This document shows, piece by piece, positions 9,445 to 32,888 of a DNA stretch of 64,000 nucleotides. A program made the translations under genes and the position numbers. The DNA is from Candidatus Poribacteria bacterium (lineage in GTDB: Bacteria > Poribacteria > WGA-4E > WGA-3G). The DNA lies in contig CBDBFU010000025.1 in assembly GCA_965205025.1 (NCBI GenBank), positions 25,574 to 89,573 on the forward strand, read 5' to 3'. The notes beneath the pieces were generated by a model that was not told where the DNA came from, did no database searches, and saw only the letters and a program-made list of their open reading frames with translations. How positions within the stretch are numbered: position 1 is the first letter of the stretch; every line of letters begins with the position of its first letter.

Positions 9445-9591
9445 ACAGAAATATCCATTTAAAAGAAGATTATTCACTTGCCATTTATACTTGATACTAT
9501 CCTATTCTACTTTCTTGTATCAATTTAACAATACAATTTAAACTTTGATACAATAATATACAAGGCAATCTGATTATTACAATAGGAACTT

Positions 9592-11580: not shown

Positions 11581-11583
11581 ACA

Positions 11584-13701: not shown

Positions 13702-13704
13702 CAG

Positions 13705-15702
13705 ATGTTCCAAAAATTTATATCATATTCACTTTTCTTTCTTTTTTTGACTATTACTATAACCCTATACGCGCAAGATAATACGCAAGTAGGACTACCT
13801 GAAGGAGCAATCGCACGATTGGGTAAGGGTGGAATTAATACAATGCAGTTTTCACCTGATGGGTCTCTACTCGCTGTCGGTACTGATGTTGGAGTATGGT
13901 TTTATGACGCATCAAGTGGAAAAGAAACGGCTTTATTCACAGGATACACTGGACGCATAGATGCACTTGATTTCTCACATGATGGAAATATGTTAGCAAG
14001 TGGTGGATTTGCAAATCCAATTGTACAAATTTGGGATCCACGTAATGGCAATAAACTAAACACAATAGAGTTAATAGATAAGACTGATAGGCTTACAGGC
14101 TTGGGGTTTTCCAATGATGGTAAAACACTAACCAGTGTTGATCTTTGGGGTAGGATAAGCCATCATGACCTGGTTAACAAAACCCAAGATATTTTGGATG
14201 TTTCTTCGGGACCACCTGGTGGGTTGGCAGTATTTTCTCCTGATGGAAACACTATTGCCAGTACTTCGTTTGAGAATGAAGGGAAGATTTTCTTGTGGGA
14301 TAGTAAATCGGGGAAACAACAAGCAATATATAAAGGACATTCGAGTAGATTAAAAGGGGATAGTTTTATCAATTCTGTTATTTCTGATATTTTTAATACA
14401 CCCAGGTATGCTGATATAAACTCATTCGATTTCTCACCAGATGGGAAAATACTGGCAAGTGGAAGCATGGACGAAACTGTTCAGTTGTGGGATGTGATAA
14501 ACCACTCTAAGATTGCTACATTAAAAGGTCATAGAAATGTAATTACAACTGTTGCCTTTTCATCAGATGGTAAAACTATAGCGAGTGGGGATGGAGAGAA
14601 ATTAATAAAACTATGGGATATTAATACGAAACGTGAACGTTCTACACTATCTGGTCATACTCATGGAATTACTGCCTTGGTGTTCAGTCCAGATGGAAAA
14701 ACATTAGCAAGTGGGAGTAGGGATGGAACTATTCGGTTTTGGAATTCGCACACTGCCAAAGAAATTGGAATCTTTGCCACTGGTCATATAGACTCTGTGA
14801 ATTCAATAGCATTTAACAAGAATGGATCATCATTAGTCAGTGCATCTTCTTACGGTAGTGTAGATGTATGGAGTATCAAGACCGCACGGGAGTTGACTAC
14901 CATTACAGAAAGTCAGACGAATTCGATAAGTACTTCTGCTTTCTCACCTGATGGTACCCTATTCGCAAGTTATGGTAGAACATATATAGATCGTAGTACT
15001 GGTAAGATTCGTTTATTCAGAGTGGAATCAGGTGATGAATTGCTTGGTCCCTGGAATGAAATAAATGACTCTGTTGATGAATTACTGTTCACACATGATA
15101 ATAGGTTTTTATACGCGAATACCGGAAAGGGAATTCGTAGTTGGAATATACTCACGGGAAAGGAGTATTTTCCATTTGGAGCGGAACCAGCACGGGGGCG
15201 AGGGTTAGCGATTGCACCCAATGGAAAATATATTGCAATGGAGACATTTCGCGGTATACTCAGGGTATGGGATGTAGATGCTCAAAGTGATTTACATATT
15301 CCGATTACGAAAAATGTGTCAGGACTTGCTTTTTCTCCAGACAGTATGTACATTGTCCAAACCCATTTTAATGATGGTACAATCCTATGGGAATTAGCCG
15401 CAAAAGAGTTAGAGGAATATAATCTATATGAGGAGAAATTAAAAGGATTTAACCCTATATTGACATTCTCACCAGATGGATCTATGCTTGTCGCTTCTGT
15501 AAGTGATTTGTGGACTCATCATATAAAAATACTTAATGTTGACACTGGAACCCTCCACACAACCTTAACTGGACACACTGAAGATATTACTGCGTTGAAG
15601 TTCTCACAAGATGGGACAACACTTGCAAGTGCGAGTAAAGATGGTACTATATTACTTTGGGATTGGGATAAAATCAAAAAAAAGATATCTAAAGGAGATT
15701 GA
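13705..15702 (+). CDS. Secreted WD40-repeat protein (member 4)
   Basis: Signal peptide ending LYA, LPEGAIARLGKG, WD repeats, terminal LLWDW. Confidence 0.9.
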   Translation: MFQKFISYSLFFLFLTITITLYAQDNTQVGLPEGAIARLGKGGINTMQFSPDGSLLAVGTDVGVWFYDASSGKETALFTGYTGRIDALDFSHDGNMLASGGFANPIVQIWDPRNGNKLNTIELIDKTDRLTGLGFSNDGKTLTSVDLWGRISHHDLVNKTQDILDVSSGPPGGLAVFSPDGNTIASTSFENEGKIFLWDSKSGKQQAIYKGHSSRLKGDSFINSVISDIFNTPRYADINSFDFSPDGKILASGSMDETVQLWDVINHSKIATLKGHRNVITTVAFSSDGKTIASGDGEKLIKLWDINTKRERSTLSGHTHGITALVFSPDGKTLASGSRDGTIRFWNSHTAKEIGIFATGHIDSVNSIAFNKNGSSLVSASSYGSVDVWSIKTARELTTITESQTNSISTSAFSPDGTLFASYGRTYIDRSTGKIRLFRVESGDELLGPWNEINDSVDELLFTHDNRFLYANTGKGIRSWNILTGKEYFPFGAEPARGRGLAIAPNGKYIAMETFRGILRVWDVDAQSDLHIPITKNVSGLAFSPDSMYIVQTHFNDGTILWELAAKELEEYNLYEEKLKGFNPILTFSPDGSMLVASVSDLWTHHIKILNVDTGTLHTTLTGHTEDITALKFSQDGTTLASASKDGTILLWDWDKIKKKISKGD

Positions 15703-15705
15703 CAG

Positions 15706-18018: not shown

Positions 18019-18021
18019 ACA

Positions 18022-19989
18022 ATGATTCATCATATTTTCAGACTTTTAGTTCTGTTGACAGTAACCTTTCATTTTAGTGTGTATGCTCAAGAATCAACAC
18101 AGAACGGTTTACCAGACGGGGCAATAGCACGACTCGGTAAGGGTGGGATAAATCTCATGCAGTACTCTCCTGATGGGAAATATCTTGTCGTAGGAACAGA
18201 TGTTGGTGTATGGGTATATGATACGAAGACTGGTGATGAGAAGGGATTACTTGCTGATAAACCTGGACAGATTAATGCACTTGCTTTTTCACCGGATAGT
18301 AAAACACTTGCCAGTGGAGGATTTGCAAACAAGATTATTCAATTGTGGAATTTGGATACTGGTAAAAAACTCAGGAATTTTATATTAACCAATGAAACAG
18401 ATTCAACCCACGGTTTAGCTTTTTCTGAGGATGGTGATCTACTCATTATTTTACAGAGATCTGGAGTAATGAAACATTGGGAAATTCAAACGAATCAAAT
18501 AGTGTCTAATGCCTATAAGGTGAAAGATCATGAAGCAATTGCATATTCTAAACAGCTCAATGTTTTTGCCACTGGACTGGATAATGGGAGAATCCACTTC
18601 TATGATGCTACAACAGGAAAACCGAAAAGAGGTTTAATTGGGCATGCCAGTCTTTTTAATAGCGACGATAAGACTATTTGGAATTTATCATTCTCAAACG
18701 ACGGAACTATGCTTGCCAGTGGAAGTATGGATAAGACTGTACGATTATGGGATACAGTCAAACGAAAAAGTCTTGGAAAATTCTCTGGACATGAAACATA
18801 TATCACTGCTGTGGCTCTATCTTACAATGGGAAAATCTTGGCGAGTGGTGATGCTAAAAAGAATATAATTCTTTGGGATACGAAAACCAAGCAAAAACTG
18901 GGAGAATTGGTAGGACATACAAATGGAATCTGTGCACTTGCGTTTTCACCTGATGGAACTACCTTAGCAAGTGGAAGTTATGATGGGACAATTCGTTTTT
19001 GGAATCCAATAAATGGAGAGGAGATATCAATTTTCACAACTGGTCATTCAAAATGGATTCAGTCATTGGCATTTACAAGAAACGATACTACACTAACTTC
19101 TACGGATTTTAATGGTACTATCGATCTATGGAATTTGAAAACAAAAAAGGGGCTCTCGTACTTCAATATTGGACAAGGTAAATCAGTAGGCACTGCAACT
19201 ATATCACAGGATGCAGTTCTATTTTCAGCAAAAAAACATACCTATACAACTGCTTTTCACCCATTAAGTTTTAGTAGTAGGGGTGGTGGCAGTAGAATGG
19301 GTGTAAGTCTTCAAGTATGGAATATTTCGACAGGTGAAGAAATTCATGGACCTTGGGAAAATCAGAAATTGGATATAAATGCAATGACATTCTCTCCAGA
19401 TAAGAAAAACTTAGTAGTAAGGGATAGACATAAAGGCGTTTATTCATGGAATATTGATACTGGAGAGGAAAGAATTATATTTAACAATCGGTCCCAATGG
19501 GAAAATAAATTAACCTTTTCACCAAACGGCAAATTTCTCGCGTTTAATGGTCGACATTCCTCCACACATATATGGGAGAGTGTAACATATCAAGATATAA
19601 CCCCTGAGGATATGATAGAAGCCTCGGCTATAGCATTTTCACCTGACAATACACTACTTGCAATGGAGCAGCGTGATATGCTTGTTTTATGGGATATCCA
19701 AGGTACAGAATTCACAGAACGAGGAAGTATTAAAGTAGGGAACATTGAGGGGCTGCTATTTACCCCTGATGGGAAATACGTCCTATCTGCTAACATAGAT
19801 AGATGGCAATATAATATAAGAATTTGGGATATCGAAACAGGAAATTATTTATTATCCTTACTCGGACACACAGAGAAAATTAAAGCAATGAGATTTTCTC
19901 ATAACGGACAAATACTCGCAACTGGGAGTCTGGATGGAACTATCCTTCTATGGGATTGGGAACAAATCAGTCATAGACTTAAAAAATAA
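18022..19989 (+). CDS. Secreted WD40-repeat protein (member 6)
   Basis: Body closely parallels member 5 (NGRIHFYDATTGK..GLIGH); terminal LLWDW. Confidence 0.9.
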   Translation: MIHHIFRLLVLLTVTFHFSVYAQESTQNGLPDGAIARLGKGGINLMQYSPDGKYLVVGTDVGVWVYDTKTGDEKGLLADKPGQINALAFSPDSKTLASGGFANKIIQLWNLDTGKKLRNFILTNETDSTHGLAFSEDGDLLIILQRSGVMKHWEIQTNQIVSNAYKVKDHEAIAYSKQLNVFATGLDNGRIHFYDATTGKPKRGLIGHASLFNSDDKTIWNLSFSNDGTMLASGSMDKTVRLWDTVKRKSLGKFSGHETYITAVALSYNGKILASGDAKKNIILWDTKTKQKLGELVGHTNGICALAFSPDGTTLASGSYDGTIRFWNPINGEEISIFTTGHSKWIQSLAFTRNDTTLTSTDFNGTIDLWNLKTKKGLSYFNIGQGKSVGTATISQDAVLFSAKKHTYTTAFHPLSFSSRGGGSRMGVSLQVWNISTGEEIHGPWENQKLDINAMTFSPDKKNLVVRDRHKGVYSWNIDTGEERIIFNNRSQWENKLTFSPNGKFLAFNGRHSSTHIWESVTYQDITPEDMIEASAIAFSPDNTLLAMEQRDMLVLWDIQGTEFTERGSIKVGNIEGLLFTPDGKYVLSANIDRWQYNIRIWDIETGNYLLSLLGHTEKIKAMRFSHNGQILATGSLDGTILLWDWEQISHRLKK

Positions 19990-20063
19990 ACGTGGTGAGA
20001 ATCTGATGTGAAATCAAATATCATTAAATAGAAGATACAGAGAATATAAAATAGGAGTAAAAA

Positions 20064-22035
20064 ATGATCCATCATATTTGCAGACTCTTAGTTCTGTTGA
20101 CATTAGTCTTTCACGTTATTGGGTATGCGGAAAACTCAGAACAAACCCATGTACCTGAAGGAGCTATCGCACGTTTTGGCAAGGGTGGGATAAATCTTAT
20201 TCGGTTTTCACCGGACGGTTCAAAACTGGCTGTTGGAACAGATATTGGACTTTGGGTGTATGATGTCAAGGATGGTGTATCCTCTGGTTTATTTACCCGA
20301 GATATAGGTCAAGTGAATGTCCTGGCATTTTCAAAGGATGGTGGTTTACTGGCAAGTGGTGGAGATGGGAATCCAATTCTTCAGGTTTGGAACATTCATT
20401 CCAACAAAGTCCATTCATCAGTGAATTTACATAAAGGTGAAATGGCATTACGAGCCTTAACATTTCACAACCGACTTATTTACACAATGAGCAGGTCTGC
20501 AGATATGGTCTCCTATAATCCTGATATTGGTGTAAAATTATCTGACAATCGTTTTTATTATAATTACGGTCTCTCGACCTTCTCGGATGATGGAGCTACA
20601 CTTGCAGGTGTAACTCATAATGGTGAGATCCACTTACGTGATGTCAAGACCGGAAAAAAAATTGCACAATTAATTGGCCCTGAAGACACGAAAAAAGAAG
20701 AAATTACTATTCTTTCATTTTCTTCAGATGGGAGGATTCTTGCAGGTGGGAGCGAGGATAAATCAGTACATTTATGGAATACTGTAAAGCATGAAAAGAT
20801 CACACAATTAAAGGGATATAAAGGGTTGATAACGGCAATTGCATTTTCAGATGACAGTAAGACAATTGCAAGTGCAGATGCAAGTAAGGAAATAACCGTG
20901 TGGAATATAGATACTGGTACAAAACAGTGTTCTATCAAAGGTCATAAGAATACCATTAACACCCTAACTTTTTCTCCTTCAACAACACCCGAATACGGAA
21001 TGTGTCTTGCCAGTGGTAGTGCGGATGGAACTATCCGTTTTTGGAATCCAACCGATGGAAATGAACTCACAGTATTCTCAACTGATTATACAGAAATAAT
21101 AAGGGCAGTTGCATTCTCAAACAACTCTACACTTGTTTCAGCATCGTATAATGGTGGTGTAAACATTTGGAATTTGAGCACCTATGACTTAGAGGAAAGT
21201 ATTAAGATAGGGGAAAATGATGCAGTTGGTTTATTAACAATTTCCTCAGATTGCACACTTATTGCAGCACAAGATTCAGAAGAATATCTAAGGTCGACAA
21301 CACACGGTTACGAGATTTCTCGAGAAGCAGATAGAAATAACAATATCGGGTTATGGTCGATTCCAGTTGGCGAAAAAATTGCCGTATTACAGAGAGAACT
21401 AAAACAAGGTGATATAGATATTGCAGAGTTTGCCCCCAACAGTAATATTATTGCCATACCACAATCTGATACTATTTTTGGCTATCATGTTCTCACAGGG
21501 ACTGAATTGTTTAGTTTGAAAACTGAAAGACCGAGTTTCGGTGGTAAATTAGTCTTCTCTCACGATGGAGATTGGATTGCTACGATAGGTCATCACACAC
21601 ATCCACATGTATGGAATTTAGAATCACTTGATGAACCCCCAAGAGTGTCTGAGAAAGTAGGACTTTCTTTAGTCTTCTCACCTGATAGTAACACCCTTGT
21701 TCTGGTTGGGTTTGATGGGATGTACCTATGGAAATTTAAAGCAAATTCCCAAGAGATGCAGACAATCACATTGCAGAAATTTGGTAGTTTAGATCAAACC
21801 ATAGAATTTTCACCTGACGGAACTAAGCTATTGGAGTCTGCGATGAGTTTTGATTACCGAATTAGAATATGGGACATACAAACAGGCAAGATTTTAGATA
21901 CCTTGTCTGTTCATACTGAGTCTGTTACAACCTTGGCTTTCTCACCAGATACAAAGTTATTGGCAAGTGGAAGTTATGATGGAACCGTCTTATTATGGGA
22001 TTGGGAGAAAAATCTCATCGAAACTGAATCAGTAA
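20064..22035 (+). CDS. Secreted WD40-repeat protein (member 7)
   Basis: The ORF track ends it at 22106. Removing one A from the run at 22008-22012 gives WDWEKISSKLNQ* ending at TAA 22033-22035, like the paralogs, and removes the overlap with member 8. Confidence 0.8.
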
Positions 22036-22050
22036 TATATGGATACATTA

Positions 22051-24038
22051 ATGAAAAGTGTATTATTTTCTATATTTCTACTCCTAATTGCGTTATACCA
22101 TCATAGTTATGCTGATTATAATTCTCATATCGGTATTCCTGAGGATGCAATTGCACGCCTTGGTAAGGGTGGAATCAATCTGATGCAGTTCTCACCAGAT
22201 GGCACAAAACTGGCTGTAGGTACAGATGTGGGGATGTGGATATACAATGTGGCAACCGGTCAAGAGACTCCTCTTTTTCCAGTCCACACTGGAGAAGTTA
22301 ATGCGCTTGCTTTTTCGTCAGATGGGAGTAGGCTTGCAAGTGGTGGACGGTATGACTCGGGCCTTCATATATGGAACACAAAATCAAATAAGCTTCTTTC
22401 AACCCATACAAATTGAACAAGCACCTAAATCTTCATCATTGACGATGGCATTTAATCAGAAAACACTTATCAATATAAATAGAAATGGGATAACCTATTG
22501 GGATCAGACAACAGATGATATTAGGTCAGAATTGCTACCCAAATTCACCCAGGAATAGAGTAATGTTATCTAATAACGGTGAAATGATCGCTGTTGTTGA
22601 TAAAGATAGAAAAGTCCATCTATATGATGTTAACACAAGAAAGCGTCTAACTGTTATTGAAGGACATAAAGCCGAGGATGAAACTAAAGTTTTAGCATTA
22701 GTATTTTCCCCTGATGGCAAGTACCTTGCCAGTGGAAGTGAAGATAATACTGTTATAATATATGATATACAGAATAGTATAAAACTTGCGACACTTATAG
22801 GACATTCAGCATGGGTTACCTGCCTTGCGTTCTCAAAGGATGGGAAGACATTAGCCAGTGGAGATGCAAAAAAGGTGATAAAACTCTGGGATATAGAAAA
22901 CATTTAAGGAGAGAGTGTCACTAATAGGACACAATAATACAATCTCTGCTTTGGTCTTCGCACCTATAGCATCAAAAAAATATGGAGGATGTCTGGCAAG
23001 TGGAAGTATAGATGGTACGATACGGTTTTGGAATCCAATTGATGGGAAGGAGATACAAACTTTTGCATCTGGACATATAGAATCAATTAAAGCGTTGGCA
23101 TTTTCTGACACAGACATGACAATATCAACTGGAGCAATTAATGGAACAGTAGACGTGTGGAGTTTACAAACGCACGACATCATAAACACTTTCACTAAGG
23201 GACAATGCGACGCAGTTAATCACATAGCATTCTCACCTACAGGTAAACATTATGTAAGACAGGGTTGGCAAGGATTACTGTGGTATGATTCAATCGGGTT
23301 TATTTATCAAGGAGAATTCTCTTGGAATACTAAAGTCCAATCATGGCATATTGCATCAGGTAAAGAAATACAGAATAATTGGGTAGACGATTTAAGTGGA
23401 TTTGATTATCTCATTTTTTCTCTCCTATCGACAATATTATAGCTGTTACCAATAACAAACACTTAAGAATACATCATCTAAACACAGGTCTTGAGCTTTA
23501 TGAAATTGAAATTAATTCTGATTCAGGGATAAGATCTCCGATTTTCTCACCCGATGGAAAATGGATTGCAACTCGTGGAAGGACTGGTACTGCATATATA
23601 TGGAATGTACAACATCCTAATAGACCGCCATTTGTATCAACAGAGAAAGGAATTTCTATAGTATTCTCACCTGATAGCTCTACACTTGCAATTGGGAGTA
23701 GATCAGGCATCTATTTTTGGAAATTCCGTGTTAAACAAGATTCTGAACCAACCTATATCTCAAATAAAATGAGTGGTGCTCGTAATTTGTTGGCATTTTC
23801 ACCTGACGGCACAATTATCTTAGTAACATCAGATAACTATTTCTCCGTAAAAACAATAAAACTATTGGATGTGGAAACGGGAAAAAGTTTAGGTGAATTA
23901 TCCGGACACACAGAATCTATTACCACTCTTGTGTATTCACATGATGGGAAGATATTAGCAAGTGGTAGTGATGATGGAACTGTTCTGTTATGGGATTGGG
24001 AGAAAATCGTTGGACGTATTAAAGTGGAGAAATTATAA
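22051..24038 (+). pseudogene. WD40-repeat protein (member 8), broken by about four frameshifts (probably sequence errors)
   Basis: Fragments 22039-22416, 22226-22558, 22515-22907, 22915-23442 and 23769-24038 join into one paralog, from MKSVLFS..IPEDAIARLGKG to LLWDWEKIVGRIKVEKL. Confidence 0.75.
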
Positions 24039-24052
24039 CCGAAGACTGTTAC

Positions 24053-24310
24053 CTAATAAATAATGCATGCCCCACCAGTACATACGCTTCCTGACTGTTG
24101 GGTTGCATCACCAGCATTAGATTTTGATTCACCTGCTTCAAATTCAGATATAAGTGATACAGTATTATCAGATGGTTTCGTTATGTTAAATTGAAGTGCA
24201 TCACTTGATGTAAATGCGACTGTACAACCTGAAAGCAATCCTACGAAGAAAAATCCACCTATAAACATTAGTACCATAATACTTCCTATCTTCACGAATC
24301 TATACCTCAA
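24053..24310 (-). CDS. Small lipoprotein with C-terminal CxxxxC tail
   Basis: Lipobox LLSGC after a hydrophobic stretch; ends SVCTGGACIIY; start overlaps the end of the DUF362 gene. Confidence 0.7.
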   Translation of the reverse strand: MRYRFVKIGSIMVLMFIGGFFFVGLLSGCTVAFTSSDALQFNITKPSDNTVSLISEFEAGESKSNAGDATQQSGSVCTGGACIIY

Positions 24311-25412
24311 TTTTAAGTAGATTTACCTGATCAAGTGAATTCATACCTAATTCTAAACTGGCGGCTGATGAAATATGGTTAGCGTATTTCGATATAGACC
24401 CTAATCCCATTTCCTCACGTTTTTGATTTACTGTTTGGAGAATTAATGTATCAAGGATGACTGGATCAGGACCAACAAACATAGATCCGTACTTCCATGT
24501 GCTTTCCTCGTGATATGTGGGACCACGGTCAAAGGATGCTACCAGTCCATCAACGATATTTAATACAACTTTATCCTTAATAATCTTATTCTCAAATATC
24601 TCACCGATAGCAGGATTACAATATAAGGGTTTACCATGGAATCTTCGAGTATTATCAACACTTCCAAAAGCCATGTTCTTTAGACACCCACTCACACCTG
24701 CCATATCGTGTTGCTTTAGAACAGGCACATTTATTACCACATCCACCAAATTAGTTAGAATACGCGAATATCTTGATCGGGTACTCTCATTTTCTCGTCT
24801 TGCAATACTATCTTTCTCTGTTTCATAGAAGACTTCATCATCATACCCAATATCATCTGTATCAGATGCGAAAGTACGTACATCCCCTTCCTCTTTCTTT
24901 ATTGGATAACCTGCATTTAGAAGATGTGCTTCAAACCGATCCCAGATGATAATCTGTTTCCTTAAAACACCTGCGGTAAATAAACTCTCAATGATTTTAT
25001 CGACAATTATGGAGTGTGTGCTTAGATTTGGTCCAGCGAGTGGGTTGATTTTTATTCCAACAATTGCATCAGGTAGAATAAAATCGCGCCATGCCTCTTT
25101 TGCAGTTTCACGTCCTGTCAGTTTCATCATAGCGTTGTCAATCATTTCACCGACAACATCTTCGTTAAGAATATCATCTTCCCAAACGGATTTACCTATG
25201 ACTTCTGCGACTGGGGGTAGAGTTTCCTTTTGCACGGGATCTCTTATCACCCTACCACCAATTTGTCCGAAGGCGGGGAGTGTTGTTAATGCTGCAGTAC
25301 TAAGTATACCCATCTGACCAAGGAATTGGCGACGGTTAAACTTATCTCGTTGTTCTACTGTTTCTTGGCAGTCAAGAAGAATATTATCTACAACTTTGTC
25401 GTTCTTATTCAT
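24300..25412 (-). CDS. DUF362 domain protein with Tat-like signal
   Basis: RRQFLG twin-arginine motif followed by a hydrophobic stretch; VGIKIN, IIIWDR, INVPVLKQH, SGCLKN, DPVILD motifs typical of DUF362. Confidence 0.8.
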   Translation of the reverse strand: MNKNDKVVDNILLDCQETVEQRDKFNRRQFLGQMGILSTAALTTLPAFGQIGGRVIRDPVQKETLPPVAEVIGKSVWEDDILNEDVVGEMIDNAMMKLTGRETAKEAWRDFILPDAIVGIKINPLAGPNLSTHSIIVDKIIESLFTAGVLRKQIIIWDRFEAHLLNAGYPIKKEEGDVRTFASDTDDIGYDDEVFYETEKDSIARRENESTRSRYSRILTNLVDVVINVPVLKQHDMAGVSGCLKNMAFGSVDNTRRFHGKPLYCNPAIGEIFENKIIKDKVVLNIVDGLVASFDRGPTYHEESTWKYGSMFVGPDPVILDTLILQTVNQKREEMGLGSISKYANHISSAASLELGMNSLDQVNLLKIEV

Positions 25413-26292
25413 TGAGTTTATTCAATTCTTCCAATGTCGTTGCGGTTGGCACTCTACCGAACTGTTTATCGAGAGATTTCCAAGCGATTGTTCCATCTGT
25501 ATCAATGATAAACGTTGCAGCTCGTGAAATCTGGTTCAGCGGTTGTTCAAAAATGTTGTATAATGTGGTGGCTACCTTTTTACCATCGGATAATATGATA
25601 TATGTCAGATTATTATTATCGGTTGTTCGTTTTGTTAATCCAATGCCCTCAACACTTATTGCGATTAACTCTGCTCCAGCTGCTTTAATCTCACCATAGT
25701 TTTGTTGCAACTCAACGAGTTGATTAATGCAAGCCCCTCAGCCACCAGTACGATAGAATACAAGAACTACTCTTTTTTCTTCACCGATATAATCAGAGAG
25801 GGAATATAGATCACCGTTCCCATCAGGTAATTCAAAATCTGGTGCTTTTGCGCCAATTTTTAAACCTTCACCTGGAGGTAATTCGGTTGATTGTGGAGGT
25901 AAGTCAAACTCTTCAATTTCAGGAAACTTTTGTTTTGTGAGAATTACTTTTTCTATTGAAACATTTGTTCCTTGAGCTACTACTACTTCCACTTCAAATT
26001 GTTCATACCCGTTAGCAACAAACATAATTTTGTAATTTCCAGCTTCAAGATCTGTGAATTTGAAACTACCTTCCGCAACAGTCTGTCTGATTATTTGACT
26101 ATCTAACAATAGGGTGGCTTGAATCGGAACACCATCAATCAACAGCACCTCTCCTTGAATTGTACCAGATGAAGTTTCAGTTCCAGGAACAACATCTAAT
26201 GAATTGTCTGTATTTCCACAACCTATGATTGTAGAGCAGATTGCAATGATTACAAAGAAGATATATGATTGATTCAATGTGTACCTCCTCAT
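25405..26292 (-). CDS. Probable selenoprotein: lipoprotein + Ig-like domain + AhpC/TSA (redoxin) domain with UGAC motif
   Basis: ORFs 25738..26292 and 25405..25710 are in one frame. TGA at 25738-25740 reads VFYRTGG-U-GACINQLVELQQNY, completing the redoxin fold begun by KAPDFELPDGNG. Lipobox IIGC. Confidence 0.85.
25705..25732 (-). promoter_or_regulatory. SECIS-like hairpin
   Basis: mRNA after UGA: ggggc UUGC auuaau CAACUC-GUU-GAGUUG caa. Apical loop starts with G, 21 nt after the UGA; lower stem UUGC/GCAA. Confidence 0.75.
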
Positions 26293-26334
26293 CTAATTTT
26301 ATTCTATCTGATTATCTCTATAATACATCAATTA

Positions 26335-26470
26335 ATTTATAACAAAGACAAGGTGTTATGGCTGTAGTGCTGTATTTAATAAAACAATGTACTACATAAA
26401 GTTAGAATCTACGTTAACGAGAATGATGCAAACTCACAATATGTAGTACAGTCAGGTTAATGTTATAAAT
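26335..26470. repeat. Nested inverted repeats (MITE-like)
   Basis: ATTTATAACA 26335-44 pairs with TGTTATAAAT 26461-70; TGTACTACATA 26388-98 pairs with TATGTAGTACA 26440-50. Confidence 0.5.
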
Positions 26471-26472
26471 AA

Positions 26473-27573
26473 CTATAGTTTCCCTAATTCTGTCAGGATC
26501 TGTGCGGTAGGTACACGATGGTTTGTTGTTCCAAGAGTTGTCCAAGCAACAGTTCCATCTAATTTAATGACAAAGCCAGATGGACGTGCGATCCTTTTAT
26601 TGTTTGGATCAATTACATTATATGCACCAATCGTTTCTCTTTCAGAATCAGAAAGAACTGGAAACTTTAACTTTCTATTTTCAACAGAATTTTTCGTGGC
26701 TGCTTGATTATCAGAACTAATAGCGATTAATTCTGCGCCTTCAGCTTTAATTTTGTCATAGTTTTGCTGCAACTCAACGAGTTGGTCTAAGCAGAATGGT
26801 CACCACCCACCTCTATAAAATATGACAACGACTTTCTTACTTCCGATAAGATCTTGAAGAGCCAACAAATCACCGTCACCATTGGGAAGTTCAAAAACGG
26901 GTGCTTCACTTCCAATGCTCAAACCTTGACCTGGATCTAATTCCTCAATTACAGGAATTGCTGTGAGGGCTACATCCAATCCATAGGTTTCATTTGCTGC
27001 TATAGGATCAATATTAACTATTCCGTCATTATATCCTTCAAGTGAGACCATTATTGTAAATGCTTGATCAACAGGGAGATTCTCAATTATAAATGTACCA
27101 TCAGCTGTGGTTAAAGTTTCATGCTTTTCACCAGACTTATCTGTTAATTGGACAAGTACACCTGATAATTTATCTCCGGTTTCGGCATCTGTTAGCATAC
27201 CTTTTATGTGTGATACAGGAACGGCTGATTTTACGAGTGAAATTCTATCTAAAGATTTTGTTTCCCCTGCAGTAACAGATGCATTTAATTCTGTCGATTC
27301 ATATCCTTGTGCAGACACTTGAACGGTATAACTACCTGCTTCAAGTTCTTTAAACTCATAACTACCATCTGCTTCAACTTGTGCAACAAGGATTCCATCC
27401 TTTAACAGTCTTACTTGAACTGTAACACCATCAATAGAATCCACTTCCCCCATGAGTGTACTCGGTTCAATTTCGACTTCTGGTGTGGGGTCGACTGGAT
27501 CTTCAGTAGATCCACAACCAAATAAGACCAATATCAAGATTGGTAATATGAGAAACAAATGTAAATGTTTCAT
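26473..27573 (-). CDS. Probable selenoprotein: lipoprotein + two Ig-like domains + AhpC/TSA domain with UPFC motif
   Basis: ORFs 26800..27573 and 26473..26772 are in one frame. TGA at 26800-26802 reads IFYRGGW-U-PFCLDQLVELQQNY, the familiar FYRGxWCPFC motif with U in place of the first C. Lipobox LFGC. Confidence 0.9.
26767..26794 (-). promoter_or_regulatory. SECIS-like hairpin
   Basis: mRNA after UGA: ccauu CUGC uuagac CAACUC-GUU-GAGUUG cag. Same upper stem-loop and spacing as the paralog; lower stem CUGC/GCAG. Confidence 0.75.
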
Positions 27574-27614
27574 GATTTTGTTCCTTTAAATCAATAATTC
27601 TTCATTAAATATAT

Positions 27615-27882
27615 CCCAAGTTGCTACTAACTGATTTTGATCGTTTCAACACAGTTTTTCAGACTCTTTCCTCACCCCAGATGAAGTTAAAGAATTTATT
27701 CGGGTAATTTCCAGTTTCTTGTAGAATCCTGTGCGGTTAGGAAACCGCACCTACCAGCTCTGGGTCCAAATTACCTATTTTATTTTTTTTAACTTCATGA
27801 GGGGTGATATGTCTATAGAAAGGTATATCAACGCCCTGCACTCCAGCGGAGTGCTATATAAGTAAATAGGTGGCAACTTGGG
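27615..27882. mobile_element. Nested MITE/REP-like composite
   Basis: Outer IR CCCAAGTTGC/GCAACTTGGG; inner IR ATGAAGTTAA..GGTAATTT / AAATTACC..TTAACTTCAT; central REP-like hairpin 27731-27755; hairpin GCACTCC-AGC-GGAGTGC 27838-27854. Confidence 0.6.
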
Positions 27883-27917
27883 TTAAATATAATTAATATG
27901 CTTCTGGATCATTATAT

Positions 27918-28706
27918 TTAATAGATAGATTTACTTTTTAAACTACCCCATGAGGTTGCAAGCTTACCTGCTGCCTCAACGGATGTAATTGTAGCTAATC
28001 CATCGTTCATAATGGCGTCTAAATCTGCTTCATCCAATGCAACATCATAGAGCACAACTTCATCAATAATTCCAGTGGTATATCGATCAAAATGTCGACC
28101 TATATGGAATACACCTTCACTATTACCATATCCACTATCGGTAGCATAATCAAGTTCTGCTTCCATTTTGCCATCAACCCATAGACTTGCTTTACCAGTA
28201 TCAGCATTCGCAACACCAGCAATAAAACGCCATGTATCATCGGCAATATCAGTTGTACTTTGTGGTCTATAGCTTGTCCCTGCACTATTTCGTAGGAAGA
28301 AGGTTATCTTCTTGTCTCCACCACCATTCCAGAACATATACCATGGAAGTGCTTGAGATTTGTCTTCATAGTTCTTACCTGCGAGTGAACCTCCGACACT
28401 TGTACCTTTGTAATATACTGTAAGAGAAAAGGATGTACCTGCTTCAAATCCTATGGCATCTGCATGTGGAACTTCGACCCAATTCCCTGCACCATCAAAT
28501 TGTAGTGCTTTTCCAAATTTTCCGTCTACCCATTGTGCTCCGTGAATTGTACCATCGTTTTCATTTTGAGATGAATCGGTTGCAACCTCTCCACTGCCTT
28601 CATCAAACAACCACATTCCTCTGATATTATCATAACCGAATTCTGCATAACTTGAAAGTTGTAGAATAGCAAATAACCCGATGATTGCTATAACTAACCC
28701 CAACAC
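27918..28706 (-). CDS. Secreted LamG/concanavalin A-like domain protein
   Basis: GMWLFDEGSG, GKFGKALQF, GIIDEV; tail KLATSWGSLK. The ATG with a good RBS at 28722 is out of frame by one base, so the true start may be there (indel). Confidence 0.85.
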   Translation of the reverse strand: MLGLVIAIIGLFAILQLSSYAEFGYDNIRGMWLFDEGSGEVATDSSQNENDGTIHGAQWVDGKFGKALQFDGAGNWVEVPHADAIGFEAGTSFSLTVYYKGTSVGGSLAGKNYEDKSQALPWYMFWNGGGDKKITFFLRNSAGTSYRPQSTTDIADDTWRFIAGVANADTGKASLWVDGKMEAELDYATDSGYGNSEGVFHIGRHFDRYTTGIIDEVVLYDVALDEADLDAIMNDGLATITSVEAAGKLATSWGSLKSKSIY

Positions 28707-28733
28707 CTATATATAATCTCATTAAAATCCCCT

Positions 28734-29528
28734 TTATTGAATCTTGACTTTTATTCTACCCCATGTGGTAGTTAATTTTTGTTTTGCGTCAACTGAAGCA
28801 GCCTCTTCAAGTCCGTTATCCATGATTGTATTCATAGCGTCTTCATCTAAAGCAGTATTGAAGAGTCCTACTTCATCAATAATCCCTGATGTATACCTAT
28901 TGTAATGGCGTCCAAAATGTAATACACTTTCAGTTGTCCCGTAGCCATCATTCTTATCGAAATCTACTTCTGCTTCTTGGTTGCCATCTATCCAGATACT
29001 GATTTTCCCGGCTTTTGCGTCTGCTCTTCCAACTACGAAGTGCCACTTATCGTCACCTATCTGACTTGTGCTATCTGCACGAAAACTCTGACTTGCGGAA
29101 TTTCGTAGATATAGTGTTACTTTGTTATCTGCACCACCATTCCATAGCAAAAACCATGGTAATACTTGTGATGTGTCTTCATAACCTTTACCAACAAGCG
29201 CCCCTCCAACTTTTGATCCCTTAAAATATACTGTAATTGTGAAGGAGATACCTTTCTTAAATCCGACTGTATCTGAATGATCAACTGAAACCCATCCATC
29301 TGTACCATTATATTCCAAGGCTTTGCCAAACTTTCCATCTACCCATTTGACACCACCCTCAATTTTTCCATCATTCCCGTTTGTCGAAGAATCTTTGACT
29401 GTATTTCCAGTGCCTTCATTAAAAAGCCACATACCCATGATGGTATCAGGTTCTATGGCTGCGTTCGTAGCGGTAATAAGAAGAAAACATAAACCTACTA
29501 CTAATATACTTATTCGCATTATATTCAT
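28734..29528 (-). CDS. Secreted LamG/concanavalin A-like domain protein
   Basis: Paralog of the neighbour; GMWLFNEGTG, GKFGKAL, GIIDEV; tail KLTTTWGRIK. Confidence 0.88.
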   Translation of the reverse strand: MNIMRISILVVGLCFLLITATNAAIEPDTIMGMWLFNEGTGNTVKDSSTNGNDGKIEGGVKWVDGKFGKALEYNGTDGWVSVDHSDTVGFKKGISFTITVYFKGSKVGGALVGKGYEDTSQVLPWFLLWNGGADNKVTLYLRNSASQSFRADSTSQIGDDKWHFVVGRADAKAGKISIWIDGNQEAEVDFDKNDGYGTTESVLHFGRHYNRYTSGIIDEVGLFNTALDEDAMNTIMDNGLEEAASVDAKQKLTTTWGRIKVKIQ

Positions 29529-29666
29529 AATTCTCTCACTTTTTATAAGATAATAAAGTTGTTTGAATTCGATTATTCGACCAATTAACAGTATATAATT
29601 ACCTAAGAAATTATATCACATATACCCTTATCGGTCAAGGTTTTAAGCCATTAGACCAGCATTATT

Positions 29667-29872
29667 TAGCTTTCGTGTTTTCTGCTATATTTTTCACATT
29701 TCTATATAAACTGCCTGTAGGTTAGGTTTCGTTCCTCAATTATGGGGTTGAGGAACGAAACCTATAAGTGTAAACTTAAGGACTGAAACCCGACATCTTT
29801 CGTTCCTGTTGGGTTTCGCAAACTCAATACAACCTGCAAGATAAACCCTAAGTAACACACATCAACGAAAGA
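29667..29872. repeat. REP/MITE-like element with 17 bp perfect inverted repeat
   Basis: TAGGTTTCGTTCCTCAA 29723-39 pairs with TTGAGGAACGAAACCTA 29748-64, preceded by GTAG; parts resemble 33040-33313. Confidence 0.6.
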
Positions 29873-30012
29873 TTCTTAAAACTAAATAACCCTGGGTCTG
29901 TGATGAATCAATCATCACAGACTATTTTAGTTATATGTATAAGATAGAGTATTACACAAATTTCATTGGAATACCTTATATAGAAAACAGGAAATATGAT
30001 CGATTTCTGAAA

Positions 30013-31216
30013 TTAGTCAATTTCACGAATATCTAAATTTCTCTCCTCTAATGTTCTTCTACGTCGCGGTAGGTCTCCAAATAAAGGTCTGAAATACCCC
30101 GCTCCTTCAGGAGACAAGTGGTATCGCTCAGAATCGTAAAAGCGAGGATCAAGACTCCTTCTGATAACATGACCAGACTCATCACGTTTTAATACCTGAT
30201 CTAATGGTAACATTATCGGTTCAATACCTACATCAGTTCTGGTGATAGTAGCAACTCCATTTACCATTCCATCAGAAAGAGACCGTACTGCTAACGCCCC
30301 TGCTTTTATGGCGGTATCTCTATCAAGTGGTATTGGACTACCACATCTTTGTAAATATCCAAGAATTAATGCTCTAAATAAAGAACTGTTAATTTCAGGT
30401 AATCGTTTTTTCATTGCTTCAACAATAATCTCTGAACATCCACCTGGTTTTGTATGGCCAAAGGCATCAAGTTCTGCCTGTGATGAAATCATTAATTCTC
30501 CTACATCATTTCGTATACCTTCTGAAACAACGACGATTACATTCCCTTGTTCTGTGTGCTTCTCACGGATTGCCTCAGCTAATTTTATCAGGTTGATATG
30601 GTACTTCAGGAACAACAATTAGATCTGCCAACCCGTATGCTGCTGATAATGTCAACCATCCTGCATCCCTTCCCATTGCCTCAACAACAATCACACGGTC
30701 ATGAGAGTATGTTGTTGTTCTTAGGTCACGTACCGCATCTATCACACGACTGGCTGCAGATGGAAATCCAGGACAAAAATAATTTACCATCTTCGAATAA
30801 TCTACCGAATCTCCTTCAGGAGGATTTATACCCACATCATTATCAATAGTTTTTGTCACAAAAACTGTGGTAAACTGTTCAGACAATGCTGTACCAACAG
30901 TTAACGTATCATCTCCCCCTATTGGAATAAGCCCACTGATATTTAGCCTCTTAAGATTATCAATTGCCTCACCTAATTTATCCGATGCAATTAGGTTCGT
31001 TCGGGAACTCTTTAAAATCGTACCTCCATGATTCTCATCAATAAGATCAGGTGTAAGAGTAAAGTATTTACCACCCTTTAAAACTCCTCTCCAACCCTCC
31101 ATAAATCCTATAAGCTCAAAACCGAGTTCCTCGGATTTTAGGGCAATACCTTTAAGGGTGGCATTGAGAGCACTTGTATCACCACCTCCTGTTAAAACAC
31201 CTATCTTTTTTCGCAT
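30013..31216 (-). CDS. pfkA: 6-phosphofructokinase family, probably PPi-dependent; one frameshift
   Basis: LTGGGD, GGTILKSSR, IGGDDT, KTIDND, EAMGRDAGW, LGYLQRCG. Removing one A in the run at 30583-30586 joins the two ORFs (PDKLAEAIR). Confidence 0.85.
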
Positions 31217-31316
31217 ATAAACTCCTAACTAAGAATAGAAATTTGAGGTTAATTTTATTCATCATATATTTGTAAACATAAAATATATTTTAAATTCAAG
31301 AATATAATCACTTTTT

Positions 31317-32888
31317 CTACATAGCTACATCAACTACTGTCGGTTTTCCAAGTGAGAGTGCTTTTTCAACTGTCGGTCTAAAGTCATCAATATTGTTAAC
31401 CCGTAGTCCAACTGCTCCAAAAGATTCAGCAAACTGAACAAAATCAGGGTTAACTAACTCTACACCAATCCTCTTGCCAAATCGACGTAACTGGCCTCTT
31501 TCAATCGAGGTATATTGACTATCATTCATAATAATTGTAACTACGGGCAGGTCATACATAACTGCTGTAGCCAGATCGGGACTTGTCATTAAAAAGCCAC
31601 CATCACCACTGAGAGCAACAACCTTCCTTTGTGGGTAAGCAACCTGCGCACCAATCGCTCCGGTCAGTCCAATCCCCATTGCCACTGATATCCCTGAAAA
31701 TATATAACTTCCTGGATAATATGTTGGAAAATGTGTTAATGCACCATATCCAGTTATATTTACATCAACAGAAAGTATGGCATCACGAGGCATTAAATCT
31801 CGAAGTTCTCTAAGTATTCTCGGTGGTTCACTTGACGTAAATTCTCGATTTAATTCTACCAATCTTTCTTCCCATTTAGAATAGAGTTTCTCTTCTTTGA
31901 GTATACTATTTAATTGTTTGAGTACTAATTTGGGATTAGCACCAATTCCAACTGTGGCGGGGTATTCCTTGTTTATCTCCTCTACATCAGCTTCAATGTG
32001 AATTAAGGGTTTAGATAATTTTAATGACCAATTCGCAGTATCACGATACGTAAATCTTGTTCCAATTGCAATTATTAGATCTGATTCCTTTAAAGCGGTT
32101 TGTGAATAACTATCTCTAAACATACCAATACAATAAGGAGAATCTTCGGGAACAGATCCTTTTCCCATCCCAGTCATAGATAGTGGGGAATCTAAATAGG
32201 AAGCAAACTCCAATAATTCATCGGAGGACCGTGTATGGTTTATACCACTACCAGATATAATTAAAGGTCTTTCAGCATCGTGAATTAGCTGAATGGCAGA
32301 ATCAATATCCTCTGGTAGTGCCATGGTTTGGATTCCATTAATTCTTCTTGGAACTTGTTGCTCTGTTTCCGCTTGTAATGCATCCGTAGCAAGTTCAATT
32401 AGTACTGGACCCGGACGACCTGAACGTAAAACACCGAAAGCTCGATTTACTGCATTTGGTATCTGATGAACATGATGAACTATTTCGATATGTTTTGTCA
32501 TGGATTCAAAAGCAGATTCTTGATCTAATCCATGAAAACTTTTCCTTGGATCTTTATGGGCAAGATAAGATGCATTTTGACCAGTAATCCAAAGAACAGG
32601 TGAGGATGCAGTAAATGCTTCGCATATTCCAATTGATGCATTATTTGAGCCAGGTCCTGGAACAGTCATACAAACACCAACTTCACCAGTTGCTCTCGCA
32701 TAACCATCCGCCATGAAAGCCGCACCACCTTCATGACGAGTTACATAATGCTTAATATCATCTTGGTTATAGTATAGTGCCTCGTATACAGTATCAAGAT
32801 GATTTCCAGGTAAACCGAATATCACATCAACACCTTGGGTTTTAAGGCACTCTACAAAAAGGTTCCCACCAGTTATAAATTTCATCAA
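31317..32888 (-). CDS. Thiamine pyrophosphate-binding enzyme (acetolactate synthase large subunit-like)
   Basis: IFGLPG, TRHEGGAAFMADGYAR, GRPGPV, GDGGF..ND TPP-binding motif. Confidence 0.9.
   Translation of the reverse strand: MMKFITGGNLFVECLKTQGVDVIFGLPGNHLDTVYEALYYNQDDIKHYVTRHEGGAAFMADGYARATGEVGVCMTVPGPGSNNASIGICEAFTASSPVLWITGQNASYLAHKDPRKSFHGLDQESAFESMTKHIEIVHHVHQIPNAVNRAFGVLRSGRPGPVLIELATDALQAETEQQVPRRINGIQTMALPEDIDSAIQLIHDAERPLIISGSGINHTRSSDELLEFASYLDSPLSMTGMGKGSVPEDSPYCIGMFRDSYSQTALKESDLIIAIGTRFTYRDTANWSLKLSKPLIHIEADVEEINKEYPATVGIGANPKLVLKQLNSILKEEKLYSKWEERLVELNREFTSSEPPRILRELRDLMPRDAILSVDVNITGYGALTHFPTYYPGSYIFSGISVAMGIGLTGAIGAQVAYPQRKVVALSGDGGFLMTSPDLATAVMYDLPVVTIIMNDSQYTSIERGQLRRFGKRIGVELVNPDFVQFAESFGAVGLRVNNIDDFRPTVEKALSLGKPTVVDVAM

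What the first reader, a model, noticed from the sequence alone, without database searches (positions are those of the whole stretch)
24053..27573. Candidate undescribed extracytoplasmic selenium redox relay: two Sec-redoxin lipoproteins, a Tat DUF362 protein and a CxxxxC-tail lipoprotein
Seen: four co-oriented genes, all with export signals (lipoboxes LFGC, IIGC, LLSGC; Tat-like RRQFL), the last three overlapping. The first two carry a redoxin domain with an in-frame TGA at the catalytic position, placed after one or two Ig-like domains. The last ends in CTGGAC. Established: UxxC AhpC/TSA-like selenoproteins occur in bacteria and DUF362 is uncharacterised. Inference: membrane-tethered Sec redoxins on stalks of two lengths exchange electrons with a dithiol-tailed lipoprotein and a Tat-exported, possibly cofactor-loaded, DUF362 enzyme. 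Standard annotation would split the key genes and miss the cluster.
Basis: partly seen in the sequence, partly recalled or inferred. Interest (0 to 1): 0.85.

Follow-up and report, generated by a model that had tools for sequence, protein, structure and literature searches.

The report
Selenocysteine lipoprotein redoxin cluster in Poribacteria
A sponge-symbiont genome carries a conserved cluster of exported genes, two of which are real selenocysteine enzymes that public annotation cuts short, next to an unknown small two-cysteine lipoprotein and an exported enzyme shaped like lactate racemase.

Summary
Four minus-strand genes lie at 24053-27573. Two are lipoproteins with beta-sandwich stalks and an AhpC/TSA redoxin domain, with in-frame TGA at a UxxC site. 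The third is a Tat-signal DUF362 protein. The fourth is an 85-aa lipoprotein ending CTGGACIIY.

The TGAs are selenocysteine codons:
- selA, selB, selD and tRNA-Sec are in the genome.
- In 80 Candidatus Poribacteria loci, 108 of 108 redoxin genes keep TGA. All 108 keep a fully paired 6-bp hairpin 15 nt downstream.
- 112 of 120 outside homologues carry FYRGGWCP[YF]C at that site.

Gene order is conserved: a Sec redoxin lies upstream of DUF362 in 78 of 80 loci, and the small gene lies downstream in 77 of 80. The tail motif CxxGxC-x-x-[YF] is invariant.

The redoxin belongs to the known "Prx-like 1" UxxC selenoprotein family. The stalked lipoprotein architecture, the small lipoprotein family and the cluster appear undescribed.

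DUF362 has a LarA (nickel-pincer enzyme) fold and keeps residues aligned to LarA's His/Lys/His.

The electron relay itself is inferred. DUF362 is separable: one family keeps redoxin-TlpA-small without it, and two genomes keep DUF362 alone. "Stalks of two lengths" is not conserved.

The parts
26473..27573 (-). redA: lipoprotein (LFGC) with two CarboxypepD_reg beta-sandwich domains and an AhpC/TSA redoxin domain carrying the U-P-F-C site; 366 aa with TGA read as Sec
   Evidence: orthologues in 78 of 80 Poribacteria loci
26800..26802 (-). Sec codon (TGA) of redA, at the first position of the UxxC motif
   Evidence: aligned with Cys of FYRGGWCP[YF]C in 112 of 120 homologues
26770..26784 (-). SECIS-like hairpin of redA: CAACUC-GUU-GAGUUG, starting 15 nt after the UGA
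25405..26292 (-). redB: lipoprotein (IIGC) with one CarboxypepD_reg-like domain (under the Pfam cut-off) and an AhpC/TSA redoxin domain carrying the U-G-A-C site; 295 aa
25738..25740 (-). Sec codon (TGA) of redB
25708..25722 (-). SECIS-like hairpin of redB, with the same 15 nt sequence as in redA
24300..25412 (-). Tat-signal DUF362 protein, 370 aa, with a LarA-like fold; the start overlaps the redB stop by 8 nt
25320..25334 (-). Twin-arginine motif RRQFL (residues 27-31); R27, R28 and F30 are invariant in 19 of 19 order-level orthologues
24053..24310 (-). Small lipoprotein (LLSGC lipobox) of no known family; the likely true start is GTG 24295 (80 aa)
24056..24082 (-). C-terminal tail CTGGACIIY: the conserved C-x-x-G-x-C-x-x-[YF] motif at the very end of the protein

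Best explanation
This is a Poribacteria-wide cell-envelope thiol/selenol-disulfide exchange module.

The selenocysteine UxxC redoxins are Prx-like/ResA-like thioredoxin-fold domains, held on lipid-anchored beta-sandwich stalks. I propose that they attack a disulfide in the flexible C-terminal CxxGxC tail of the small lipoprotein, form a selenenylsulfide intermediate and release the dithiol, or run the reverse reaction. The small lipoprotein would then act as a tethered dithiol carrier or client.

In most families the pair is joined, partly by overlapping genes, to a Tat-exported DUF362 enzyme. This enzyme has the LarA fold and keeps residues aligned with LarA's catalytic His, cofactor-tethering Lys and Ni-ligand His. 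It is therefore probably exported already folded around a cofactor, and is served by, or feeds, the dithiol carrier.

Shown: Sec decoding, export signals, conserved gene order, the invariant tail motif and the LarA fold.
Inferred: who reduces whom, the cofactor, the substrate and the electron source. A DsbD-type membrane protein exists elsewhere in the genome.
For: Sec decoding:
- selB, selD (itself with 1 TGA), selA and tRNA-Sec (78.5 bits) are in the genome.
- 108 of 108 redoxin genes in 80 loci have TGA and a fully paired 6-bp hairpin 15 nt downstream. The loop varies: GGU 40, GGA 24, GUU 21, GGC 16, GUG 5, AGU 2.
- In a 20-gene set, 93.6% of cells are paired against 16-47% in slid controls. 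One C-G to U-A compensatory change falls in the core stem.
- Stem codons are fixed against codon usage. Leu CTC is 18 of 18 where the gene-wide frequency is 14%. TTG is 20 of 20 against 18%. GAG is 19 of 20 against 25%.
- Homologues carry Cys at the site in 112 of 120 cases.

Linkage:
- A Sec redoxin lies upstream of DUF362 in 78 of 80 loci. The small gene lies downstream in 77 of 80, and one of the three misses is a contig end.
- In family f4, Sec-redoxin, a TlpA-like CxxC lipoprotein and the small gene form their own tight cluster.
- Two 95%-complete genomes lack the small gene and also lack the adjacent redoxin.

Small protein:
- Single copy; found in 159 of 176 phylum genomes at E<=0.01.
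- Lipobox Cys, both tail Cys, one Gly and the terminal aromatic residue are conserved.

DUF362:
- RRxF is invariant in 19 of 19 orthologues.
- The model has pLDDT 91.9.
- The only PDB representatives with Z>=8 are five LarA-family chains (Z 14.4-15.9); the next best is 5.0. The Foldseek top 16 are all LarA-family.
- hhalign pairs H235, K245 and H259 with the LarA His, Lys and His. Their roles come from passages of PMC11770544.
- These residues are kept in 102, 94 and 97 of 120 family members.

A DsbD_TM protein is present in the genome.
Against: - No result shows contact or electron transfer between any two of the four proteins.
- DUF362 is separable from the pair. Family f4 has it on another contig. 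G030 (96% complete) has redoxin, TlpA and small but no DUF362 hit. G093 and G025 keep DUF362 without the pair.
- In the deepest relatives (f8) the small gene sits beside an outer-membrane barrel gene, with no redoxin within 1.5 kb.
- In genus g3, two of three loci showed no redoxin hit within 6 kb.
- The hhalign match to LarA is weak overall (E 0.057). LarA's Arg75 position is not matched by an Arg.
- The genome has 6 DUF2088 hits, which by themselves explain the presence of larC and larE.
- Exported DUF362 domains fused to CBM9 and dockerin are reported (passages of PMC5742341), which hints at carbohydrate work.
Confidence: 0.45

Rival explanations
1. There are two independent modules that merely share an operon in some families. 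In this reading the Sec-redoxin/small-lipoprotein pair belongs with TlpA-like proteins and an outer-membrane beta-barrel. DUF362 is an unrelated periplasmic LarA-like enzyme acting on a hydroxy acid or sugar.
For: DUF362 and the pair occur apart in family f4, G030, G093 and G025. The small gene and the barrel gene are adjacent in f8, f4/g4 and f3. Tat-type DUF362 is widespread well beyond this phylum: 540 clusters at E<=1e-30, and 112 of the top 150 have an RRxFL-like motif. CBM9-DUF362 fusions are reported in PMC5742341.
Against: The genes are adjacent in 77-78 of 80 loci, with overlapping or nearly abutting reading frames, across three families whose DUF362 identity falls to about 55%.
Confidence: 0.3
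2. The small lipoprotein is a metal chaperone, for example for Cu(I). Its CxxGxC site would be kept reduced by the Sec-redoxin and TlpA-like lipoproteins, in the way TlpA keeps ScoI reduced.
For: A TlpA-like CxxC lipoprotein sits in the same cluster in f3 and f4. Two closely spaced Cys residues with Gly between them lie at a flexible terminus.
Against: No metal-enzyme or transporter gene was seen in the clusters examined. No known metal-binding family matches the small protein.
Confidence: 0.12
3. The redoxins are envelope peroxidases, that is, selenium peroxiredoxins that destroy peroxides. The small lipoprotein would be their resolving or reducing thiol.
For: The best solved sequence match is a BCP thiol peroxidase (2cx3, 2.1e-16). 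There is an AhpC/TSA Pfam match.
Against: In the alignment, the peroxidatic Cys of BCP falls on the second Cys of the motif. Sec occupies the place of the conserved Ser/Thr three residues before it. This is the CxxC arrangement of ResA, which matches nearly as well (3e-15). All NCBIfam peroxiredoxin equivalogs score far under their cut-offs.
Confidence: 0.08
4. The TGAs are true stops. The genes would then encode stalk-only lipoproteins followed by separate or dead redoxin ORFs.
For: Public gene calls end at the TGA, giving 257-aa entries.
Against: TGA is retained in 108 of 108 genes with the frame kept open through it and on through a conserved downstream redoxin half. A conserved hairpin follows, the Sec machinery is complete, and homologues carry Cys at the site.
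Confidence: 0.02

Closest known systems
Prx-like 1 selenoprotein family (pfam00578, UxxC) of marine metagenome surveys (PMC2398784, passages read)
   Same: AhpC/TSA domain with Sec at the first position of UxxC, and many Cys homologues (FYRGGWCPxC).
   Different: Here the domain is the C-terminal part of a lipoprotein with 0-2 CarboxypepD_reg beta-sandwich domains. Among the 112 hits that carry the Cys motif, the precomputed Pfam column lists no CarboxypepD_reg. The gene also sits in a fixed cluster.
ResA/TlpA extracytoplasmic thiol-disulfide oxidoreductases
   Same: Membrane-tethered thioredoxin-fold reductases with the redox motif at the same place. Sequence matches to ResA structures reach 3e-15. 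A Cys-type TlpA-like lipoprotein shares the cluster in f3 and f4.
   Different: Sec replaces the attacking Cys. The NCBIfam ResA score is 62 against a cut-off of 170. No cytochrome c maturation genes were seen nearby.
LarA lactate racemase superfamily (nickel-pincer nucleotide enzymes, DUF2088)
   Same: Same fold (Z 14.4-15.9 over about 210 residues). Same Pfam clan CL0471 (PMC11770544). The His-x9-Lys ... His-Gly pattern aligns.
   Different: The protein matches DUF362, not Lar_N. It lacks the LarA C-terminal domain region (aligned range 70-334 only). It carries a Tat signal. No cofactor is known for DUF362.
DsrC/TusE-type carriers with redox-active Cys on a flexible C-terminal arm (recalled, not tested)
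   Same: A small protein whose conserved Cys pair sits at the extreme C-terminus, suited to reaching into a partner's active site.
   Different: No sequence relation was found. This protein is a lipoprotein outside the cytoplasm, with 4-residue Cys spacing.

Membership tests
Bacterial selenoprotein (Sec decoded at UGA) | In-frame UGA aligned with Cys in homologues | tested here: met
   112 of 120 homologues have FYRGGWCP[YF]C at the site
Bacterial selenoprotein (Sec decoded at UGA) | Stem-loop (SECIS) shortly downstream of the UGA | tested here: met
   A 6-bp hairpin 15 nt after the UGA is fully paired in 108 of 108 genes. Stem codons are fixed while the loop varies. The fold on its own is weak, -5 kcal/mol. 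SelB binding is not testable here.
Bacterial selenoprotein (Sec decoded at UGA) | selA, selB, selD and tRNA-Sec in the same genome | tested here: met
   All four score over their curated cut-offs
Prx-like 1 (pfam00578, UxxC) | PF00578 match plus a UxxC motif | tested here: met
   104.4 and 98.2 bits against a cut-off of 26; motifs UPFC and UGAC
Peroxiredoxin proper (BCP/PrxQ, AhpC) | Peroxidatic Cys preceded by the conserved Thr/Ser (TxxC), and a family-level HMM score | tested here: not met
   Sec sits where the Ser of 2cx3 lies. NCBIfam BCP scores 51 against 140, PrxQ 34 against 260 and AhpC 39 against 272.
ResA/TlpA | Family-level HMM score | tested here: not met
   62.4 and 47.6 bits against a cut-off of 170; the fold and motif position are shared
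DUF362 (PF04015) | Pfam match over the gathering score | tested here: met
   67.8 bits against 24, covering profile positions 1-198 of 200
LarA / NPN-dependent racemases | Lar_N (PF09861) sequence membership | tested here: not met
   Only DUF362 is reported by Pfam. The profile search of PDB sequences found 0 hits at E<=1.
LarA / NPN-dependent racemases | LarA fold | tested here: met
   Z 14.4-15.9 to 4nar, 7s91, 9eia, 9q3j and 5huq; the next best is 5.0. Foldseek E down to 1.5e-6.
LarA / NPN-dependent racemases | Cofactor residues Lys184 and His200, catalytic His174 and His108, and Arg75 | tested here: inconclusive
   H235, K245 and H259 align with the own-genome LarA homologue's His, Lys and His at the positions of LarA1 His174, Lys184 and His200. 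The hhalign match is weak (E 0.057). Arg75 and His108 are not clearly matched.
LarA / NPN-dependent racemases | Bound nickel-pincer nucleotide | not testable with these tools
   larC, larE and six DUF2088 hits are in the genome, so their presence does not discriminate
Tat-exported protein | Twin-arginine motif followed by a hydrophobic stretch and an AxA-type site | tested here: met
   NRRQFLGQMGILSTAALTTLPAFGQ. RR and F are invariant in 19 of 19 orthologues, and relatives have AFAQ. This rests on motif reading only; no predictor was run.
Bacterial lipoprotein | Signal peptide ending in a lipobox with an invariant Cys | tested here: met
   LFGC, IIGC and LSGC. G23 and C24 are invariant in 12 of 12 small-protein sequences. 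This rests on motif reading only.
Slam-dependent surface lipoprotein system | Adjacent Slam (SlipAM) outer-membrane barrel | tested here: inconclusive
   The barrel gene next to the small gene in f3, f4 and f8 has no Pfam family at E<=0.01. BBP2_2 scores E 0.024, under its cut-off. Atlas feature hits are a BBP2_2 cluster at 0.97 and a SlipAM cluster at 0.96. In this genome the barrel is unlinked.

The most novel reading that the evidence does not exclude
The Tat-exported DUF362 protein is the first extracytoplasmic user of a nickel-pincer-type (LarA-like, Lys-tethered) cofactor. It would be loaded in the cytoplasm and exported folded. The selenocysteine lipoprotein redoxins and the dithiol-tailed lipoprotein would form its dedicated envelope electron or thiol relay. 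This would give DUF362 a function and define a new selenium-dependent redox chain outside the cytoplasm.
Probability: 0.15. Interest if true: 0.85.

Novelty: new variant of a known kind. Interest (0 to 1): 0.58.

Why it matters
1. It adds one to three real selenoproteins per genome across an entire sponge-symbiont phylum. Public records truncate these at the Sec codon, so Poribacteria selenoproteomes and envelope redox capacity are underestimated.
2. It defines a new small lipoprotein family with an invariant terminal CxxGxC motif, tied to Sec and Cys oxidoreductases. This gives a concrete client-enzyme pair to test.
3. It gives the large, uncharacterised Tat-type DUF362 family a testable lead: a LarA fold with the His/Lys/His cofactor residues retained. 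Genomes that make the nickel-pincer cofactor but lack LarA are a puzzle I recall from the literature, not checked here. Among the 14 control genomes, two have larC and DUF362 but no Lar_N.

Tried and rejected
- Complex prediction of DUF362 (residues 50-370) with the small protein (residues 24-80): no answer, score 0.02 against a mark of 0.32. This is neither support nor evidence against.
- The first DUF362 model, from 19 close sequences, was poor (pLDDT 62). It was replaced by a 120-sequence model.
- The DUF362 profile against PDB sequences gave 0 hits.
- The protein Atlas on the small protein gave only generic small-lipoprotein look-alikes under 0.9.
- Rfam at E<=1 over 20000-32000 gave no match.
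- The promoter/terminator scan gave counts at shuffle level and no terminator between the genes on the minus strand.
- The search for related loci with a cross-phylum DUF362 alignment (A7) was not run, because the alignment had no conserved stretch. Neighbourhoods of Tat-DUF362 genes in other phyla therefore remain unexamined.
- The look-up of sequencing runs failed five times because the machine was busy. It then listed 2 holders from one study and no RNA holder. Read laying was not used, so co-transcription is untested.
Only the motif search was run.
- A RiPP-precursor reading of the small protein was considered and set aside. Its N-terminus is a lipoprotein signal, and no peptidase or transporter gene lies in the clusters.
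Full report
**What is there**

Four co-oriented minus-strand genes occupy 27573-24053.
- redA (366 aa) and redB (295 aa) begin with lipoprotein signals (LFGC, IIGC).
- They continue with CarboxypepD_reg-type beta-sandwich domains. redA has two. redB has one, which scores under the Pfam cut-off.
- Both end in an AhpC/TSA redoxin domain (E 5.3e-30 and 4.2e-28).
- In each gene a TGA sits at the first position of a UxxC motif (FYRGGW-U-PFC, FYRTGG-U-GAC). The reading frame stays open and homologous beyond it.

The third gene encodes a 370-aa DUF362 protein (67.8 bits, cut-off 24) with an NRRQFLG twin-arginine signal. Its start overlaps the redB stop by 8 nt.

The fourth gene encodes a small lipoprotein (LLSGC) ending SVCTGGACIIY, with no Pfam or NCBIfam family. 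Its likely start is GTG 24295, 4 nt after the DUF362 stop, judged from the alignment with relatives.

**The TGAs encode selenocysteine**

The genome holds selB with tRNA-Sec directly beside it, selA, and a selD that itself contains one TGA. All score over their curated cut-offs.

Fifteen nucleotides after each TGA lies the hairpin CAACUC-GNN-GAGUUG.
- The single-sequence fold is weak, -5 kcal/mol, no better than shuffles.
- In 80 Poribacteria loci I found 108 redoxin genes. All 108 have TGA at the site, never a Cys codon.
- All 108 have the six stem pairs intact: 103 CAACUC/GAGUUG and 5 CAGCUC/GAGUUG with a G-U pair. The loop varies among six triplets.
- In a 20-gene alignment, 93.6% of cells pair against 16-47% in slid controls. 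One core pair shows a compensatory C-G to U-A change. 11 of 500 shuffles reach the observed values.
- Stem codons are frozen against codon usage. Leu CTC is 18 of 18 where the gene-wide share is 14%. Leu TTG is 20 of 20 against 18%. Glu GAG is 19 of 20 against 25%. The loop codon's third base is free.
- The TGA-plus-hairpin pattern occurs only twice in the 5.66-Mb genome, at these two genes.

Outside the phylum, 112 of the 120 best database hits carry FYRGGWCP[YF]C at the site. The other 8 comprise seven 257-aa Poribacteria ORFs cut at the TGA and one 224-aa hit without the motif. Two of the 257-aa ORFs are named 'hypothetical protein' or 'carboxypeptidase regulatory-like domain-containing protein'.

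**Who and how widely**

Record titles name the relatives Candidatus Poribacteria.

Among the 80 loci centred on the DUF362 orthologue:
- A Sec redoxin lies directly upstream in 78.
- The small gene lies directly downstream in 77.
- The misses are one contig end (L168) and two genomes that lack both (L175 and L181).
- Copy number of the redoxin varies: 52 loci have one, 22 have two and 4 have three.
- Some copies have no stalk domain (200 aa). The 'two stalk lengths' are therefore a feature of this genus, not of the system.

Across the 176 phylum genomes held:
- The small protein profile hits 159 at E<=0.01, as a single copy.
- The DUF362 profile hits 170 at E<=1e-20.

The tail motif C-x-x-G-x-C-x-x-[YF] holds in every sequence seen. 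This includes the divergent forms CANGVCTIY in family f4 and CAGGVC[TA]IF in family f8.

**The parts are not equally tied**

- In family f4 (three genera), a Sec redoxin, a TlpA-like CxxC lipoprotein (AhpC-TSA 1.6e-27 for the f3 example) and the small gene form a tight cluster. DUF362 lies on another contig.
- G030 (96% complete) has that cluster but no DUF362 hit.
- Conversely, G093 and G025 (both 95% complete) keep the DUF362 orthologue but have no small gene and no adjacent redoxin. G093 has a stalk-less Sec redoxin elsewhere.
- In f3 the order is TlpA-like, Sec redoxin, DUF362, small, then a ~410-aa putative outer-membrane barrel.
- In the class-level relatives f8, the small gene sits beside that barrel gene with no redoxin within 1.5 kb.

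The redoxin-small tie is therefore the more persistent redox link. The small-barrel tie may be the oldest. DUF362 is a frequent but dispensable neighbour.

On the barrel protein:
- It has no Pfam family at E<=0.01.
- BBP2_2 scores E 0.024, under its cut-off.
- Its nearest named Atlas clusters are a BBP2_2 porin cluster (0.97) and a SlipAM-bearing cluster (0.96). This is only a lead that the lipoproteins may be surface-displayed.
- In this genome the barrel gene lies elsewhere, next to a thiG-like gene as read by eye.

**DUF362**

A model built on 120 family members is confident (pLDDT 91.9, pTM 0.83).
- Against one representative per PDB cluster, the only chains with Z>=8 are five LarA-family enzymes (Z 14.4-15.9, 206-225 residues aligned). 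The next best is 5.0.
- The Foldseek top 16 are all LarA-family entries.
- Pfam places DUF362 and the LarA N-terminal family in one clan (passages of PMC11770544).
- A profile-profile alignment with three LarA homologues of this same genome is weak overall (E 0.057).
- That alignment pairs DUF362 H235, K245 and H259 with the homologues' His, Lys and His, in the motif PH..AG.SGG.K ... HG.
- By position these correspond to LarA1's catalytic His174, cofactor-tethering Lys184 and nickel ligand His200. The roles come from passages of PMC11770544.
- The three residues are kept in 102, 94 and 97 of 120 family members.
- LarA's Arg75 and His108 are not clearly matched.
- The genome has larC, larE and six DUF2088 hits, so cofactor synthesis is available but not diagnostic.

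The Tat-type subfamily is large: 2857 cluster representatives at E<=0.001 and 540 at E<=1e-30. Of the top 150, 112 have an RRxFL-like motif.

**Mechanism**

The redoxin domain is intermediate between BCP peroxidases and ResA (2cx3 at 2.1e-16, 3c71 at 3e-15).
- The peroxidatic Cys of BCP aligns with the second Cys of the motif.
- Sec takes the place of the attacking Cys of a CxxC reductase.

I therefore read these proteins as disulfide reductases or isomerases rather than peroxidases. The small lipoprotein's terminal Cys pair is the most likely client or shuttle. DUF362 would be a cofactor-bearing enzyme linked to that shuttle in most lineages. A DsbD-type membrane protein elsewhere in the genome could supply electrons. 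All of these links are inferred.

**Known and new**

The UxxC AhpC/TSA selenoprotein family is known as 'Prx-like 1' (pfam00578, 225 Sec and 2,740 Cys sequences in the GOS survey). This comes from passages of PMC2398784.

Poribacteria are listed among the phyla with Sec-containing group 4 hydrogenases (passage of PMC13582414).

In the library searched:
- 'DUF362' occurs in 14 papers.
- I read passages of three of these, and none of the three assigns a function. The other 11 I saw only as listing entries.
- 'Poribacteria' together with 'selenoprotein' occurs in one paper, the hydrogenase paper.
- I found no description of this cluster, of the small lipoprotein or of stalked Sec lipoprotein redoxins.

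Limits on the literature check:
- Supplementary tables of the selenoproteome surveys were not open to me and could list these genes.
- Three further papers (PMC13188914, PMC9312934, PMC1794560) I saw only as search listings.

**Limits**

There is no expression evidence. No RNA holder was listed and no reads were laid. There is no support for or against binding from co-folding. Neighbourhoods of Tat-DUF362 genes outside Poribacteria were not examined.

Noticed in passing
window 7405-24038 (+): Seven tandem ORFs of 655-770 aa (7405-22106) lie here. The one I read (20064-22106) has repeated '...FSPDG..LASGS.DGT..LW...' units, which look like WD40 repeats by eye. The other six were seen only as coordinates. 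They are followed by an eighth similar copy broken into at least four ORFs (22039-24038). This eighth copy runs convergently into the small lipoprotein gene.
   Followed up: no
window 27918-29528 (-): Two adjacent, clearly paralogous ORFs of 262 and 264 aa with N-terminal hydrophobic signals lie directly upstream of redA. No family search was run.
   Followed up: no
G000:C4:104148-105074 (L009): The genome's selD matches the family model end to end with one in-frame TGA, so SelD is probably itself a selenoprotein.
   Followed up: no
control genomes: Among 14 named control genomes, Synechococcus elongatus and Haloferax volcanii have both DUF362 and LarC (Ni_insertion) but no Lar_N. Four of the 5 DUF362-positive controls have LarC. 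This is compatible with DUF362 using the nickel-pincer cofactor, but the sample is tiny.
   Followed up: partly
P0020 (1384 aa) and P0025 (1071 aa): Among the best family hits are long proteins with 4 and 3 DUF362-like stretches and a Tat-like N-terminus. These are multi-domain exported forms.
   Followed up: no
G000:C25:12635-13906 (L093:1483-2754), about 12 kb before the window start on the same contig: A full-length LarA homologue (423 aa) matches the broad-spectrum lactate racemase structure 9eid at 4.2e-129. It is one of six DUF2088 hits in the genome.
   Followed up: partly
L085:6143-7375, L180:7991-9277, L194:1548-2870; own genome L182:1336-2556: A ~406-440-aa protein ending in an aromatic residue, probably an outer-membrane barrel, lies next to the small lipoprotein gene in families f3, f4 and f8. 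In this genome it is unlinked, next to a thiG-like gene read by eye. Atlas look-alikes include BBP2_2 porin and SlipAM (Slam) clusters.
   Followed up: partly
L037:4685-5482 (-): In genus g6 a 265-aa opposite-strand ORF lies in the ~1.4-kb gap between the Sec redoxin gene and the DUF362 gene. It is possibly a mobile-element gene. No family search was run.
   Followed up: no
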